Assembly: GCA_043810165.1 (NCBI GenBank)
Contig: JBDROJ010000013.1
Coordinates: 1 to 60,419 of the forward strand
Direction of reading: 5' to 3'
Source: a bacterium
Lineage (GTDB): Bacteria; Patescibacteriota; Patescibacteriia; Magasanikbacterales; GWA2-37-8
DNA: 60,419 nt
The notes under the pieces were generated by a model, which did no database searches, was not told where the DNA came from, and saw only the letters and a list, made by a program, of their open reading frames with translations. Below, one piece after another: positions 17,323-19,331 of the stretch. The translations under genes were made by a program, and so were the position numbers. Positions within the stretch are counted from its first letter, which is position 1; each line of letters opens with the position of its first letter.

Positions 17323-17354
17323 ATAAAAAACAACCTTCAAGTTTGAAGATTGTT
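17323..17354 (-). terminator. Intrinsic terminator of tRNA-like gene A
   Basis: The minus strand reads aacaatcttc-aaactt-gaaggttgtt followed by TTTTTT. It begins 6 nt after the encoded CCA. Confidence 0.55.
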
Positions 17355-17359
17355 TCTAG

Positions 17360-17434
17360 TGGTGGAGCGAGGGGGAGTTGAACCCCAAAAACTCAAATGG
17401 TAAGTTGAGATATAGCACCGGCTACACTCGCTCC
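17360..17434 (-). tRNA. Non-canonical tRNA-like gene A: 75 nt, encoded CCA, 8-nt anticodon loop CUUACCAU
   Basis: Minus strand: GGAGCGAG-T-GTAG-CCGGTG-CTAT-AT-CTCAA-CTTACCAT-TTGAG-TTTTT-GGGG-TTCAACT-CCCC-CTCGCTCC-ACCA. It folds as a cloverleaf with either 8/4 or 7/5 (U-C mismatch) acceptor/T stems. The fold is supported by compensatory changes relative to copy B. Confidence 0.6.
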
Positions 17435-17451
17435 ATGTCTCCACCGAGATC

Positions 17452-17460
17452 ATTTTATCA
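17452..17460 (-). promoter_or_regulatory. Extended -10 promoter for tRNA-like A
   Basis: The minus strand reads TG-A-TAAAAT, ending 17 nt upstream of the cloverleaf 5' end. Confidence 0.4.
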
Positions 17461-17528
17461 CATAGTAGATAAAATAATCATAAAATTTTTCTAAAATAAA
17501 AATAAAACATTTTATTATTAGCGGACAA

Positions 17529-17596
17529 CAAAAAACTCCCCGAAGGGAGTTCTGAGATTCGTGTGGACGGTTTATCTACAGCCCAACTTACCATCT
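17529..17596 (-). ncRNA. Small RNA A (~68 nt); its 5' end is complementary to the anticodon arm of tRNA-like A
   Basis: Predicted start AGAUGGUAAGUUGGG..., 7 nt after the -10. Ends in the hairpin GAACUCCC-UUCG-GGGAGUU plus a U-run (17530-17551). 17584-17594 is the reverse complement of 17397-17407. Confidence 0.5.
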
Positions 17597-17603
17597 ATTA
17601 ATT

Positions 17604-17631
17604 AGAATAACATAATATTTTTTTTTGTCAA
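17604..17631 (-). promoter_or_regulatory. sigma70 promoter of small RNA A
   Basis: The minus strand reads TTGACA (17631-17626), N16, TATTCT (17609-17604). Confidence 0.55.
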
Positions 17632-17729
17632 GTTGGTTTATCCACAAAAAGAATAAATAAGGGACTGCGTCACATGGTGTGGTGCAGGACAAAACAGATC
17701 CCGATTAAGTCGGGAGAAAGGAGTGGCCA

Positions 17730-18014
17730 ATGGCCATCCTAGGACAGATCGATGAGGCGACGCTGGCGCGTCGCCTGGACCAGACCCGTAAAGCCCGTGC
17801 CCGGCAGAATAACCAGGCGCGGGCAAAAAGTTTTTTCTCCACCAAGCCCTTGAAGGGTGCGGTGGAGGAGTTGTCCTCGCGTCTCCGCCAGGAGCGTGAG
17901 GACAGTACTCACACCGGCTTGCACCGGCGTAACACATCCGGGCGTTGGATCGCCCGTGACGAGCAGATGGCCGCCATCGCAGCGGCTAATAAGCTCGAGA
18001 AGCTGGGTTACTAG
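17730..18014 (+). CDS. Arg-rich 94-aa hypothetical protein in the GC-rich island
   Basis: AAGGAG (17718-17723) lies 6 nt upstream of the ATG. G/C-rich codons. The antisense and other-frame ORFs here are expected high-GC artefacts. No family recognised. Confidence 0.5.
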   Translation: MAILGQIDEATLARRLDQTRKARARQNNQARAKSFFSTKPLKGAVEELSSRLRQEREDSTHTGLHRRNTSGRWIARDEQMAAIAAANKLEKLGY

Positions 18015-18152
18015 CCTAGCTTCTCCACCCCACCCAACGCCCGACCTTCAACCTATATGGTCGGGAAGTCCAAACATTCTATTTGGGCAATACACATCTC
18101 CTAGTCAATAACTAGGTTAGGGCAAAATTTGACCCCATAAAACGACAAGTTG

Positions 18153-18197
18153 GTGTCACCTACCACAAGTGGTGAGCCTAGAGAAAGCAGATCCTCA
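18153..18197 (+). repeat. 45-nt direct repeat R1 (upstream of the csx3-like ORF)
   Basis: gtgtcacctaccacaagtggtgagcctagagaaagcagatcctca. Matches R2 at 41 of 45 positions and contains the hairpin tcacc-N9-ggtga. Confidence 0.7.
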
Positions 18198-18324
18198 CGA
18201 GGTTCGTCAATTCCTCAACAATGAAATATTGACTTTAGCGGACGAGAACAACCTTGCCCTGTAAAACATGGGCACTCCTGTCACTGAAAAGTGAGTCCGC
18301 CAGGAGAAGATACGGAGATTGAAA

Positions 18325-18639
18325 ATGGCCGGCACCACCTACACCGTCACCATCATCGAGAACAACGAGTCAAACGTCACCCTGAAGCTGGGGTTCGGTA
18401 CCCCGGCGCAGAACGACGAGATCGTCCGCGACGCGGTCGCGGCGGTCAAGGAGCTCTCCCTCGAGGGTGGGAAGGTCGTGCGCCTGAACGGGCCCGCGTC
18501 GCTGCCGGTGGCCATCGCCATCGCGCACGAGGTCGGGCACAAGTTCGGTGCCGTCGCGGCGTTCGACCCCAAGCTGGGGAAGTACGTCGTGGCGATCTCG
18601 CACGACCCGTCGCTCACGGTGGGCGACCTCATCGACTGA
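18325..18639 (+). CDS. Csx3/Crn3-like protein (candidate cyclic tetra-adenylate ring nuclease fold)
   Basis: 104 aa. GGAG lies 7 nt upstream of the ATG. Third codon positions are almost all G/C. GKVVRLNGPASLPVAIAIAHEVGHKFGAVAAFDPKLGKYVVAISHDPSLTVGDLID aligns, from my memory of A. fulgidus Csx3 AF1864, with GVVISGRGPIWLHCFLAHKYHHTPFVAVYDPRLGAVVVQSHSELREGDVID. This includes the His, Asp (in DPxLG) and His (in SH) positions. Confidence 0.6.
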   Translation: MAGTTYTVTIIENNESNVTLKLGFGTPAQNDEIVRDAVAAVKELSLEGGKVVRLNGPASLPVAIAIAHEVGHKFGAVAAFDPKLGKYVVAISHDPSLTVGDLID

Positions 18640-18750
18640 TCATCGATGAGCCAAAATTTCCTGACTGATCACCAGGTTAGAGCAAAGATTCGGTTCGGAC
18701 GAAGTTTCGTCTATACCGCTTCAAGCCTGGCTCTAGAAAATGATAGGCGA

Positions 18751-18795
18751 GTGTCACCTACTACAAGTGGTGAGCCACGAGGAAGCAGATCCTCA
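18751..18795 (+). repeat. 45-nt direct repeat R2 (downstream of the csx3-like ORF)
   Basis: gtgtcacctactacaagtggtgagccacgaggaagcagatcctca. Matches R1 at 41 of 45 positions. Confidence 0.7.
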
Positions 18796-18824
18796 AAAAT
18801 TGGAAATAGAGGCTGTTTATATAG

Positions 18825-18864
18825 CCCTGAATCAGAACTCGCCTTTGGCTCGTTCGGTTCAGGG
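18825..18864. repeat. Hairpin repeat of the CCTGAA-C-GAA...GGTTCAGG family
   Basis: ccctgaatcagaactcgcctttggctcgttcggttcaggg. Related hairpins at 18966-19004, 46173-46208 and 46252-46289. Confidence 0.5.
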
Positions 18865-18882
18865 CAAGTAGTACTCGGGCAA

Positions 18883-18904
18883 GGGTGAGCCGCACAGCTC
18901 ACCC
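18883..18904 (+). terminator. GC-rich hairpin at the right edge of the island (possible terminator)
   Basis: 8-bp stem gggtgagc/gctcaccc with loop cgcaca. There is no clear U-run. Confidence 0.3.
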
Positions 18905-18965
18905 GACCCCGTAATTGTTCTTAAATATTTTGAGAATAGTTATGGGGGTAAACCCCTCATTCTGG

Positions 18966-19004
18966 GGTGAACCGAATAAGCCATTAGGCGAATCCTGGTT
19001 CACC
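18966..19004. repeat. Hairpin repeat of the same TGAACCGAA...GGTTCA family
   Basis: ggtgaaccgaataagccattaggcgaatcctggttcacc, with an 8-bp stem. Confidence 0.5.
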
Positions 19005-19025
19005 TCACTCTCTCCAAAATAGAGA

Positions 19026-19058
19026 ATAAAAAATCCCGATATAATTAATCGGGATTTT
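19026..19058 (-). terminator. Intrinsic terminator of tRNA-like gene B
   Basis: The minus strand reads aaatcccgat-taattat-atcgggattt followed by a T-run. It starts 5 nt after the encoded CCA. Confidence 0.6.
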
Positions 19059-19062
19059 TGGA

Positions 19063-19137
19063 TGGTGGAGCGAGGGGGAGTTGAACCCCAGTAACTCGAG
19101 TGGTAATTCGAGTTGTGGCACCGGCCACACTCGCCCC
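19063..19137 (-). tRNA. Non-canonical tRNA-like gene B: 75 nt, encoded CCA, 8-nt anticodon loop AUUACCAC, G-U at the third acceptor pair
   Basis: Minus strand: GGGGCGAG-T-GTGG-CCGGTG-CCAC-AA-CTCGA-ATTACCAC-TCGAG-TTACT-GGGG-TTCAACT-CCCC-CTCGCTCC-ACCA. The architecture and length are identical to copy A. Confidence 0.6.
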
Positions 19138-19153
19138 ATGCACCACCGAGTTG

Positions 19154-19162
19154 ATTATAACA
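19154..19162 (-). promoter_or_regulatory. Extended -10 promoter for tRNA-like B
   Basis: The minus strand reads TG-T-TATAAT, ending 16 nt upstream of the cloverleaf 5' end. Confidence 0.5.
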
Positions 19163-19230
19163 GGTAATAGATAAAATATTTATAAAATTTTTCTAAAGAA
19201 AAAGTAAAATATTTTATCATTAGCGGACAA

Positions 19231-19297
19231 CAAAAAACTCCCCGAAGGGAGTTCTAGAGTTCGTGTAGACGGATTACCTACAACTCGAATTACCACT
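19231..19297 (-). ncRNA. Small RNA B (~67 nt); its 5' 18 nt are perfectly complementary to the anticodon arm of tRNA-like B
   Basis: Predicted start AGUGGUAAUUCGAGUUGU..., 7 nt after the TATAAT. Carries the same conserved terminator hairpin as small RNA A. 19280-19297 is the reverse complement of 19099-19116. Confidence 0.55.
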
Positions 19298-19303
19298 ATT
19301 AAA

Positions 19304-19331
19304 ATTATACAATAGTGTATTTTTTTGTCAA
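19304..19331 (-). promoter_or_regulatory. Consensus sigma70 promoter of small RNA B
   Basis: The minus strand reads TTGACA (19331-19326), N16, TATAAT (19309-19304). Confidence 0.65.

What the first reader, a model, noticed from the sequence alone, without database searches (positions are those of the whole stretch)
17323..19331. Two copies of a promoter / small RNA / tRNA-like module in which the small-RNA 5' end and the anticodon arm co-vary
Copies A (17323-17631) and B (19026-19331) are about 80% identical by eye. Both have the same minus-strand layout: a TTGACA-N16-(TATTCT or TATAAT) promoter; a ~67-nt RNA ending in the conserved hairpin GAACUCCC-UUCG-GGGAGUU plus a U-run; an AT-rich spacer with a TGnTAAAAT/TGnTATAAT extended -10; a 75-nt cloverleaf with encoded CCA; and a second terminator.

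The scaffold is conserved, but two separated segments differ between the copies and changed together. In A, 17584-17594 is the reverse complement of 17397-17407 (11 nt perfect, 15 bp if G-U pairs are allowed). In B, 19280-19297 is the perfect 18-nt reverse complement of 19099-19116. In both copies the predicted transcription start, 7 nt after the -10, is the first complementary nucleotide, and the duplex would cover the whole anticodon loop plus the 5' stem strand.

My inference is that an antisense small RNA masks its cognate tRNA-like RNA. This could be an RNA-RNA toxin/antitoxin or a switch for a recoding tRNA, or the tRNA-like RNA could act as a sponge for the small RNA. I know of no described system with this architecture.
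Basis: partly seen in the sequence, partly recalled or inferred. Interest (0 to 1): 0.92.

Follow-up and report, generated by a model that had tools for sequence, protein, structure and literature searches.

The report
tRNA-like gene with cognate antisense RNA
The window holds two copies of a two-gene RNA module, an oddly built and probably alanine-accepting tRNA look-alike plus a small RNA tailored to pair with that tRNA's anticodon arm; the same design recurs in at least 16 variants in other uncultured bacteria and looks like an undescribed way to keep a mis-decoding tRNA in check.

Summary
Copies A and B are 79-86% identical. Each has a sigma-70 promoter, a ~70-nt small RNA with a strong terminator, an extended -10, a 75-nt cloverleaf with encoded CCA and an 8-nt anticodon loop, and a second terminator.

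The co-variation holds well beyond this window. I found 16 distinct modules. The small-RNA gene lies upstream in some and downstream in others, and the tRNA scaffolds differ. In all of them the small-RNA 5' end is complementary to its own tRNA-like anticodon loop plus 5' stem strand.
- Cognate pairs gave the best duplex in 12 of 12 rows tested (-30.0 vs -13.9 kcal/mol; 0 of 100,000 permutations).
- In 9 aligned modules the intermolecular helix is 94.8% paired, and 10 of 17 pairs change on both sides.
- Non-Watson-Crick cells are G·U 35 times and A·C 5 times, so selection acts on RNA, not on DNA inverted repeats.
- The small RNA is a diverged antisense copy of the tRNA-like 5' half.

Almost all the tRNA-likes carry the alanine identity set (G3:U70, A73) but have Asp, Glu, Arg or Leu anticodons or 8-nt loops.

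Best reading, function untested: a dedicated antisense RNA masks a mis-decoding tRNA, as an RNA-only poison/antidote or a switch. Neither Rfam nor the searched literature describes this.

The parts
19338..19346 (+). Perfect DnaA-box 9-mer TTATCCACA, 6 nt upstream of the -35 of small-RNA promoter B. It may be a regulatory site and is not proven to belong to the module.
   Evidence: The window has only 3 copies, and 2 of them sit at the two small-RNA promoters. The same box occupies the same place in L041/L042.
19304..19331 (-). Promoter of small RNA B: TTGACA-N16-TATAAT.
   Evidence: 12 of 12 consensus matches.
19228..19297 (-). Small RNA B, about 70 nt. It comprises a 5' single-stranded seed/guide, hairpin 1 (19282-19264), a linker, the terminator hairpin GAACUCCC-UUCG-GGGAGUU, and a U run.
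   Evidence: terminator 19255-19234; fold; the first 11 nt are unpaired; nhmmer hit 19297-19232.
19280..19297 (-). Guide of small RNA B, an 18-nt perfect complement of 19099-19116.
   Evidence: (I6).
19154..19162 (-). Extended -10 (TGTTATAAT) of the tRNA-like B promoter. It is followed by a leader whose GGUGG can pair with the 3' CCACC.
   Evidence: Read directly. The two-hexamer scan did not call it.
19063..19137 (-). tRNA-like B, 75 nt. Features: 8-bp acceptor and 4-bp T stem, G3:U70, A73, encoded CCA, 6-bp D stem with CGGU loop, 7-bp anticodon stem, and the 8-nt loop AUUACCAC.
   Evidence: (Tymo_tRNA-like 40.7, tmRNA 23 bits).
19099..19116 (-). Target of guide B: the 3' strand of the D stem, the 5' strand of the anticodon stem, and the whole anticodon loop.
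19029..19059 (-). Terminator after tRNA-like B.
17638..17646 (+). DnaA-box 9-mer TTATCCACA upstream of small-RNA promoter A.
17604..17631 (-). Promoter of small RNA A: TTGACA-N16-TATTCT with an upstream TG.
   Evidence: 10 of 12 matches.
17526..17597 (-). Small RNA A, about 70 nt, with the same layout as B.
   Evidence: terminator 17553-17532; nhmmer hit 17596-17530.
17576..17597 (-). Guide of small RNA A. An 11-nt perfect core extends over 22 positions with 17 Watson-Crick pairs, 4 G·U and 1 mismatch.
   Evidence: (I10).
17452..17460 (-). Extended -10 (TGATAAAAT) of the tRNA-like A promoter.
   Evidence: Read directly.
17360..17434 (-). tRNA-like A, 75 nt, same scaffold as B. It differs in having A3-U70, a 5-bp anticodon stem and the loop CUUACCAU. 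It may be a decaying copy.
   Evidence: (tRNA-Sec model 35.3 bits, below its cut-off of 47).
17394..17415 (-). Target of guide A in the anticodon and D arms.
17323..17355 (-). Terminator-like hairpin plus U run after tRNA-like A.
   Evidence: Read directly. The stem is too AT-rich for the scan.

Best explanation
Each module encodes two separate RNAs.

The first is a non-canonical tRNA. Its acceptor end carries the alanine identity set (G1:C72, G2:C71, G3:U70, A73, CCA), but its anticodon arm does not belong to alanine. In this window the arm ends in an 8-nt loop holding UACC. In relatives the anticodons are GUC, CUC, GCG, ACG or AAG.

The second is a ~70-nt small RNA that arose as an inverted partial copy of that tRNA's 5' half. 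Its unpaired 5' end nucleates on the anticodon loop and then invades the 5' strand of the anticodon stem. This is the same topology as the RNA-IN 5' end meeting the RNA-OUT loop in IS10. A downstream segment can take the 3' strand.

The result is that the anticodon is sequestered and the lower half of the cloverleaf is unfolded. The duplex may also be an RNase III substrate. The small RNA is therefore a cognate, copy-specific inhibitor of a tRNA that would otherwise insert alanine at the wrong codons or shift the reading frame. The pair would behave as an RNA-only poison/antidote or as an on/off switch for mis-decoding.

Shown by comparison: both RNA structures, the intermolecular pairing, its specificity, and selection at the RNA level.
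Inferred: two transcripts, alanylation, ribosomal decoding, harm when unmasked.
For: Pairing is selected.
- 12 of 12 cognate pairs are the best in their row, -30.0 vs -13.9 kcal/mol, and 0 of 100,000 permutations match the observed sum.
- On alignment A2 the intermolecular helix has 17 pairs and is 94.8% paired. Ten pairs change on both sides. The covariation score is 0.68 against 0.305 in shuffles (0 of 500 as high). Slid registers are 25-47% paired.
- A second helix is 80% paired, with permutation p = 3e-5.
- G·U outnumbers A·C by 35 to 5.

The design does not depend on the scaffold.
- The gene order is permuted.
- L020b is allo-tRNA-like, with a long variable arm and G73.
- L024b has a UGGU D loop and anticodon AAG.
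- L041 has a canonical D arm and anticodon GCG.
- Each has its own matching small RNA.

Other structural support.
- The cloverleaf is supported by covariation: 96.6% paired, 11 pairs with double changes.
- G3:U70 and A73 occur in all members except copy A and L020b, whose G73 and long variable arm suggest serine identity.
- The free small RNA leaves its seed unpaired.
- The small RNA is a diverged antisense copy of the tRNA 5' half.
- Promoters and terminators flank each RNA.

Support for harm and for accessory status.
- Related allo-tRNAs with G3:U70 insert Ala in E. coli, and a Ser-type allo-tRNA with a Leu anticodon kills E. coli (PMC5389517).
- GC-rich relatives with the cognate Ala anticodon UGC (L001, L008, L022) show no partner small RNA.
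- Distribution is patchy. Among loci with a TrmB-family regulator like the one beside module A, the module is present in the window and in L041/L042 and undetected in L043-L053. This points to an accessory element.
Against: - There are no expression data, so the two transcripts rest on consensus promoters and terminators only.
- Aminoacylation, EF-Tu binding and decoding are all untested.
- The D arm is minimal (3-6 bp with a 4-nt loop). Only one member reaches Rfam's tRNA threshold, so these RNAs may never enter the ribosome.
- Copy A lacks G3:U70.
- Some GC-rich relatives with non-Ala anticodons (L004, L023, L025) show no partner within about 450 nt.
- Several modules have persisted inside long antisense ORFs for a long time (L002 and L040 share the site at 38% protein identity). 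That fits a domesticated or cis-acting role as well as a selfish one.
- The homologue sample was drawn with one D-loop/T-arm pattern and includes related sequences, so the counts are not independent events.
Confidence: 0.5

Rival explanations
1. The tRNA-like is an alanine carrier or decoy that is not used for decoding, and the pair has a non-translational role. For example, it could donate Ala-tRNA to cell-envelope chemistry, or act as a decoy for anticodon nucleases. The small RNA would then keep it off the ribosome or control its stability.
For: - The D arm is minimal and tRNA model scores are low.
- Alanylation needs only the acceptor/T minihelix, which stays intact in the duplex (established knowledge of AlaRS).
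- The anticodon set (Asp, Glu, Arg) overlaps the targets of known anticodon nucleases (from memory, not tested).
- The L002/L040 modules sit inside an envelope-type membrane-protein gene.
Against: - No conserved protein neighbour exists across loci.
- The anticodon loops are well formed (U33, purine 37) and drawn from a small set of sense anticodons, as expected if decoding matters.
- Related allo-tRNAs do decode.
Confidence: 0.17
2. Sponge model. The small RNA's real targets are mRNAs, and the tRNA-like RNA titrates it, as the leuZ 3' external transcribed spacer does for RyhB and RybB.
For: A 5' seed followed by a terminator is the usual layout of a trans-acting small RNA. Both RNAs have their own promoters.
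Against: - Guides differ in almost every module and track the freely variable stem of their own tRNA-like. mRNA targets would have had to co-vary as well.
- No other match to either guide exists in the 60-kb window.
- The small RNA is an antisense copy of the tRNA 5' half.
Confidence: 0.08
3. Mobile or selfish DNA. The module is a small non-autonomous element (MITE- or SINE-like, comparable to Rickettsia palindromic elements). Its internal inverted repeat would serve mobility or processing, and it would tolerate in-frame insertion into genes.
For: - In L009 the module is an AT-rich island in a GC-rich contig.
- CPR-type modules lie antisense inside stop-free ORFs of unrelated proteins.
- Modules occur as tandem pairs.
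- Occurrence among relatives is patchy.
- Neighbours include integrase-like, IS-like, intein, Csx3 and SAVED genes.
Against: - No terminal repeats, target-site duplications or transposase travel with it.
- The repeat is internal, and it is kept with G·U pairs, which only matter in RNA.
- The L002 and L040 modules are orthologous at one site despite 38% host-protein identity.
- This reading is compatible with the best explanation, because addiction modules are often mobile. It is not a true alternative.
Confidence: 0.1
4. DNA-level inverted repeats. The two arms are recombinase sites of an invertible switch, or they are kept alike by gene conversion, and no RNA-RNA pairing is involved.
For: B has an 18-bp perfect inverted repeat separated by 163 bp. 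A promoter lies between the arms.
Against: - G·U versus A·C is 35 to 5, which a DNA constraint would not produce.
- Arm sequences differ in every module, whereas recombinase sites are conserved.
- No recombinase is adjacent in the window.
- Inversion would split the tRNA-like gene.
- In L041 the complementarity is divided into two segments that cover both strands of the stem.
Confidence: 0.03
5. Cis-antisense control. Both RNAs exist to pair with the mRNA of the gene on the opposite strand.
For: All neighbouring genes are on the strand opposite to the modules. Many modules lie inside ORFs.
Against: The window copies and L009 are intergenic. This model also does not explain why the small-RNA 5' end must match the tRNA-like arm.
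Confidence: 0.05

Closest known systems
allo-tRNAs (8/4 and 9/3 tRNAs; Mukai et al. 2016/2017, PMC5389517)
   Same: - 8-bp acceptor plus 4-bp T stem in the window type and the GC-rich relatives.
- Long D stem with a 4-nt loop, as in tRNA-Sec.
- Some published allo-tRNAs have G3:U70 and a GCG anticodon and insert Ala.
- Mis-decoding allo-tRNAs are toxic in E. coli.
- They are often found near toxin-antitoxin genes.
- L020b is a textbook-looking 8/4 member with a long variable arm.
   Different: - The window RNAs have a short (5-nt) variable region and an 8-nt anticodon loop.
- The CPR-type members are 7/5.
- The paper does not contain the word 'antisense', so it reports no partner small RNA.
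RNA-RNA (type VIII) and type I toxin-antitoxin systems (SdsR/RyeA, CreT/CreA, hok/sok)
   Same: An adjacent, separately promoted antisense RNA is specific for its own partner. The modules are accessory, patchy and multi-copy with distinct specificities. In CreTA the toxin RNA acts through the tRNA pool.
   Different: Here the presumed toxin would be a tRNA itself, neutralised by direct masking of its anticodon. Toxicity is not shown, no protein is involved, and no cas genes lie nearby.
IS10 RNA-IN / RNA-OUT and plasmid CopA/CopT antisense pairing
   Same: The free 5' end of one RNA nucleates on the loop of a hairpin in the other. Pairing then spreads down one strand of the stem by strand exchange.
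   Different: Those pairs are transcribed from the same DNA in opposite directions and control an mRNA. Here the two genes are separate, lie on the same strand, and the target is a tRNA-like RNA.
T-box leader RNAs
   Same: They are the known bacterial RNAs that read a tRNA anticodon by base pairing. The small-RNA seed contains the matching codon, for example GAC opposite GUC.
   Different: T-boxes are cis-acting mRNA leaders. They pair with 3-4 nt of an intact tRNA and sense its 3' end. Here a trans-acting RNA pairs over 14-27 nt and opens the stem. No T-box match was found.
tmRNA tRNA-like domain
   Same: G3:U70, A73 and CCA; the T arm is joined directly to the acceptor; the Rfam tmRNA model gives a weak match of 23 bits.
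   Different: There is no mRNA-like domain, tag reading frame or pseudoknots. The small RNA has no conserved frame or stop. ARAGORN does not call a tmRNA.

Membership tests
Canonical elongator tRNA (Rfam RF00005) | Score at or above the family gathering threshold of 29 bits. | tested here: not met
   No RF00005 hit for either window copy at gathering threshold. Among 14 related loci only L024 reaches it, at 33.5 bits.
Canonical elongator tRNA (Rfam RF00005) | 7-nt anticodon loop with a 3-base anticodon. | tested here: not met
   All three window-type members have 8-nt loops. The CPR-type members do have 7-nt loops.
Canonical elongator tRNA (Rfam RF00005) | Cloverleaf with four arms supported by covariation. 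| tested here: met
   96.6% of cells paired and 11 pairs with changes on both sides; no shuffle (0 of 500) reached any of the five observed measures.
Alanine-accepting tRNA (AlaRS substrate) | G3:U70 wobble pair with A73 and G1:C72 / G2:C71. | tested here: met
   Present in B and in every tRNA-like examined here with this D-loop/T-arm scaffold or with a small-RNA partner, except L020b, which is Ser-type with G73. The two weak pattern hits L021 and L026 were left out. Copy A has A3-U70. Actual charging cannot be tested with these tools.
allo-tRNA (Mukai et al.) | 12-bp acceptor branch split 8/4 or 9/3. | tested here: met
   8/4 in A, B, L009 and the GC-rich relatives. The CPR-type members are 7/5.
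allo-tRNA (Mukai et al.) | Long variable arm (class II-like). | tested here: not met
   The variable region is 5 nt in A and B. Only L020b has a long arm.
tRNA-Sec | 13-bp acceptor branch, long variable arm, UCA anticodon, and the Rfam threshold of 47 bits. | tested here: not met
   35.3 bits for copy A. Only the 6-bp D stem with 4-nt loop is shared.
Tymovirus tRNA-like 3' UTR element (RF00233) | Pseudoknotted acceptor arm at the 3' end of a viral RNA. | tested here: not met
   B scores 40.7 against a threshold of 40, but the alignment collapses the model's 20-nt 3' segment to 5 nt. The acceptor here is an ordinary 8-bp helix in a bacterial chromosome. Copy A scores 31.6.
tmRNA | mRNA-like domain with a resume codon, tag ORF and pseudoknots. 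| tested here: not met
   The Rfam match covers the tRNA-like ends only, at 23 bits against a threshold of 47. ARAGORN finds no tmRNA. I found no conserved frame or stop when reading the small RNAs (sequences).
Toxin-antitoxin system with an RNA antitoxin (types I, III and VIII) | An adjacent antitoxin RNA specific for its own toxin partner. | tested here: met
   Cognate specificity in 12 of 12 rows, with covariation.
Toxin-antitoxin system with an RNA antitoxin (types I, III and VIII) | The toxin arrests growth when the antitoxin is absent, and the antitoxin is less stable than the toxin. | not testable with these tools
   The only indirect support is that mis-decoding allo-tRNAs kill E. coli (PMC5389517).
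Invertible DNA switch (inverton) | Conserved inverted-repeat recombinase sites with an associated recombinase, and a constraint that acts on DNA. | tested here: not met
   Arms differ between modules. G·U versus A·C is 35 to 5. No recombinase lies next to the window copies.
T-box riboswitch | A cis leader with a specifier loop and a T-box bulge upstream of a regulated gene. | tested here: not met
   No Rfam T-box hit. The small RNA ends in a terminator and no gene follows it on its strand.

The most novel reading that the evidence does not exclude
This is an RNA-only addiction or abortive-infection module whose poison is a tRNA. The tRNA is alanine-charged (in L020b, serine-charged) and reads Asp, Glu, Arg or Leu codons or, in this window, a GGUA quadruplet. 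A short-lived small RNA, born by inverted duplication of the tRNA's own 5' half, holds it inactive. Each copy has a private guide/anticodon-arm 'lock'. The small-RNA promoter may be tied to DnaA status.
Probability: 0.3. Interest if true: 0.95.

Novelty: categorically new. Interest (0 to 1): 0.88.

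Why it matters
If the inferred mechanism holds, bacteria carry tRNAs built to mis-decode, each with a private antisense RNA as a safety catch.
- It would be the first natural case of a trans-acting small RNA that targets a tRNA anticodon arm.
- It would be a new kind of RNA-RNA toxin/antidote, or a switch for regulated mistranslation.
- It would explain how the puzzling allo-tRNA-like genes, lethal when expressed alone, can be kept in genomes.
- It gives a directly testable system for natural quadruplet or missense decoding.
- It offers ready-made orthogonal tRNA/anti-tRNA pairs for synthetic biology.
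- It is a clear example of a regulatory RNA born by inverted duplication of its target.

Tried and rejected
Searches that found nothing useful.
- Two viral-contig pattern scans, none found.
- The first metagenome pattern, which fixed the acceptor as CTCG, none found.
- blastn against plasmids and phages gave only AT-rich or terminator noise.

Csx3 link rejected. The Csx3-like gene between the copies has 364 homologues, but the Csx3 loci fetched (L010-L019) carry no module. It is independent cargo.

Wasted search. I queried the protein database with the antisense translation of the module. One attempt was too short and the other found no candidates.

tmRNA in trans rejected. I saw no conserved reading frame in the small RNAs.

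Other readings rejected. Inverton, sponge and cis-antisense are set out under rivals.

Look-ups without result. Exact-sequence look-ups of the window's two island ORFs returned nothing.

Synteny. Loci sharing a homologue of the TrmB-family regulator gene (window 15592-16410) next to module A yielded one further module lineage (L041/L042). Nothing was detected in L043-L053 by ARAGORN, regex or nhmmer. Detection of other scaffolds there is not guaranteed.

Not done.

Full report
**What is in the window**

On the minus strand, 17323-17648 (A) and 19026-19348 (B) are direct repeats, 76-86% identical (D1, D2, D5). Each reads, 5' to 3':
- a TTATCCACA box;
- a sigma-70 promoter, 12/12 consensus matches in B and 10/12 in A;
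- a ~70-nt small RNA ending in a 9-bp GC-rich hairpin and a U run (terminators 19255-19234 and 17553-17532);
- an AT-rich spacer with an extended -10 (TGTTATAAT / TGATAAAAT);
- a 75-nt cloverleaf with encoded CCA;
- a second terminator (19059-19029; the A-side one was read).

ARAGORN calls both cloverleaves 'tRNA-???' with a four-base anticodon. Both fold as cloverleaves with z about -4.8. They have an 8-bp acceptor stem, a 4-bp T stem, a 6-bp D stem with a CGGU loop, a 5-nt variable region and an 8-nt anticodon loop.

Rfam gives only generic tRNA-like matches:
- Tymo_tRNA-like, 40.7 bits for B against a threshold of 40, with the model's 3' segment collapsed;
- tRNA-Sec, 35.3 bits against 47;
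- tmRNA, 23 bits against 47.

Rfam has nothing for the small RNA.

**The complementarity**

In B the small-RNA 5' end (19297-19280) is an 18/18 complement of 19116-19099. That stretch covers the 3' strand of the D stem, the 5' strand of the anticodon stem and the whole loop. In A an 11-nt perfect core extends to 22 positions with 4 G·U and one mismatch. Neither guide has any other match in the 60 kb; expectation is 0.00.

Between A and B, three positions changed on both partners and three single changes give G·U (alignment A1). In the free small RNA the first ~11 nt are unpaired.

**Homologues**

One D-loop/T-arm pattern found 9 genome loci and 21 metagenome loci. Viral contigs gave none.

- L009 has the window layout with a different 8-nt loop (CUUGUCAU) and a matching guide, 27 positions with 22 Watson-Crick and 4 G·U.
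- In Gottesmanbacteria, Woesebacteria and other Patescibacteria contigs the tRNA-like comes first. It has a 7/5 acceptor/T split, a 7-nt loop and no encoded CCA. A TTGACA-N17-TATAAT promoter and a small RNA follow it, and the small-RNA 5' end again matches the anticodon loop and 5' stem strand.
- Further modules with other scaffolds turned up by inspection:
  - L020b, allo-tRNA-like with a long variable arm and G73, 13-nt perfect guide;
  - L024b, UGGU D loop and anticodon AAG, 13-nt perfect guide;
  - L041/L042, canonical D arm, anticodon GCG, G3:U70. They lie upstream of a homologue of the TrmB-family regulator gene (window 15592-16410) that lies next to module A.

That makes 16 distinct modules.

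**Statistics**

- A 12 x 12 matrix of guide-versus-arm duplex energies puts the cognate pair first in every row and in 11 of 12 columns. Means are -30.0 and -13.9 kcal/mol, and 0 of 100,000 permutations reach the observed sum.
- On a MAFFT alignment of nine CPR-type modules (A2), the cloverleaf is 96.6% paired with 11 doubly changed pairs.
- On the same alignment, the 17-pair intermolecular helix is 94.8% paired with 10 doubly changed pairs. Across both intermolecular helices, the covariation score is 0.68 against 0.305 in shuffles (0 of 500 as high), and slid registers fall to 25-47% paired.
- A second helix, between the small-RNA segment after hairpin 1 and the 3' strand of the anticodon stem, is 80% paired, with permutation p = 3e-5.
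- In fixed registers the non-Watson-Crick cells are G·U 35 times and A·C 5 times (binomial p about 1e-6; cells are not phylogenetically independent).

G·U on one strand is A·C on the other. The constraint therefore acts on RNA of the predicted polarity, not on DNA repeats.

**Origin**

Aligning each small RNA with the reverse complement of its tRNA-like 5' half shows the following:
- the guide is the antisense of the loop plus 5' strand;
- hairpin 1 is the antisense of the D arm, with mostly C-to-U changes that keep G·U pairing;
- traces of the acceptor strand follow.

The small RNA was therefore born by inverted partial duplication of its target.

**What the tRNA-like may do**

Apart from copy A (A3-U70), every member with this scaffold and every other partnered tRNA-like except the Ser-type L020b has G1:C72, G2:C71, G3:U70 and A73. 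This is the AlaRS identity set (the identity rule is established knowledge).

The anticodons are GUC (x6), CUC (x2), GCG (x3), ACG and AAG, or lie in 8-nt loops. GC-rich relatives with the cognate Ala anticodon UGC show no partner.

Published allo-tRNAs with G3:U70 insert Ala in E. coli, and a Ser-type allo-tRNA with a Leu anticodon is lethal there (PMC5389517). That paper reports no antisense partner.

From this I infer that the small RNA masks a tRNA that would otherwise mistranslate or frameshift.

**Context**

- No protein gene is shared between the loci.
- All neighbouring genes lie on the strand opposite to the module.
- CPR-type modules sit inside stop-free antisense ORFs. One case is an orthologous ~1190-aa membrane protein in L002 and L040 with the module at the same site and a conserved C-terminus after it.
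- The module is missing from several loci that carry a homologous TrmB-family gene, so it is accessory.
- The Csx3-like gene between A and B is unrelated cargo.

**Rivals**

An inverton, a sponge, cis-antisense control and a purely mobile element are each weighed in the rivals section. None explains the RNA-level, copy-specific covariation as well.

**Limits**

- There are no transcript or biochemical data.
- The sample is biased by the search pattern and contains related sequences.
- The function is inferred.

**Novelty**

Rfam and six literature searches turned up no description of a tRNA or tRNA-like gene paired with a cognate anti-anticodon small RNA.

Noticed in passing
window 17638-17646 and 19338-19346; L041 2763 and 3008; L042 99 and 344: The perfect DnaA-box 9-mer TTATCCACA lies 6-7 nt upstream of the -35 of both small-RNA promoters. 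Only 3 copies exist in the 60 kb; the third is at 26152. In L041/L042 it sits in the opposite orientation before two TTGACA promoters, one of which drives that module's small RNA. This may link the small RNA to DnaA or to another regulator.
   Followed up: partly
window 17640-19020: A GC-rich (50-53%) island lies in a 37% GC genome between the two modules. Its + strand ORFs are 17730-18014 (94 aa, no family) and 18325-18639 (Csx3-like, Pfam 26 bits). Each ORF is followed by a ~68-nt repeat (18130-18197 and 18728-18795). The Csx3 gene plus its repeat is 81% identical at the DNA level to contig L010, and 364 homologues are mostly from Patescibacteria. The window has no CRISPR array or cas genes. 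The island looks like mobile small-gene cassettes.
   Followed up: partly
L002 2841-6431; L040 700-4191; L005; L020; L024; L031; L037: CPR-type modules lie antisense inside long ORFs whose frame stays open through the whole module. L002 and L040 carry the module at the same site of an orthologous ~1190-aa membrane protein, with a conserved C-terminal domain after it. The same DNA may therefore encode a protein segment on one strand and two RNAs on the other.
   Followed up: partly
L037 9-5217 (and L032): The module sits between an ORF ending in an N-terminal intein-splicing fragment and an ORF starting with the C-terminal fragment. A zinc-ribbon protein and a NYN-domain RNase lie alongside. 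This could be a split or disrupted intein carrying cargo.
   Followed up: no
L020 (rc 1700-2110); L024 (1560-1370 and 713-526, minus strand): Modules occur as tandem pairs with different scaffolds or anticodons, as in the window. L020 pairs an Ala-type and a Ser-type (long variable arm, G73) tRNA-like. Both have anticodon GUC and each has its own small RNA.
   Followed up: yes
window about 17040-17290 (minus strand); L045 1893-1950; L047 2035-2080: A conserved non-coding stretch lies downstream of module A (GCACTCGGTACTAC-hairpin-GTAGAGCGACCGCGAGGGA...). It is shared with two loci that carry a homologous TrmB-family gene and has no Rfam match. It may be another structured RNA.
   Followed up: no
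window 17040-17056, 17699-17715, 19035-19055: Palindromes of the form TCCCGA-N-TCGGGA recur. One of them forms the terminator after tRNA-like B.
   Followed up: no
window 18226-18254: A third copy of the tail motif GTTGT(N)CGTCCGCTAA, which follows both small-RNA terminators, lies on the minus strand just upstream of the Csx3 start. It may be the remnant of a third small RNA.
   Followed up: no
L009 560-1180: The module forms an AT-rich island of about 620 nt inside a GC-rich (>60%) contig labelled Gammaproteobacteria. Two extra terminator-like copies of the small-RNA 3' hairpin lie upstream. This suggests horizontal transfer.
   Followed up: partly
window 1-6000: Cumulative GC skew has its minimum near 4-5 kb, close to tRNA-Asn (5156-5229). 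This may be the replication origin region.
   Followed up: no
window 27217-27341: A GGCGTT-type tandem repeat (periods 6, 18 and 36) lies inside the 1030-aa minus-strand ORF 25689-28781.
   Followed up: no
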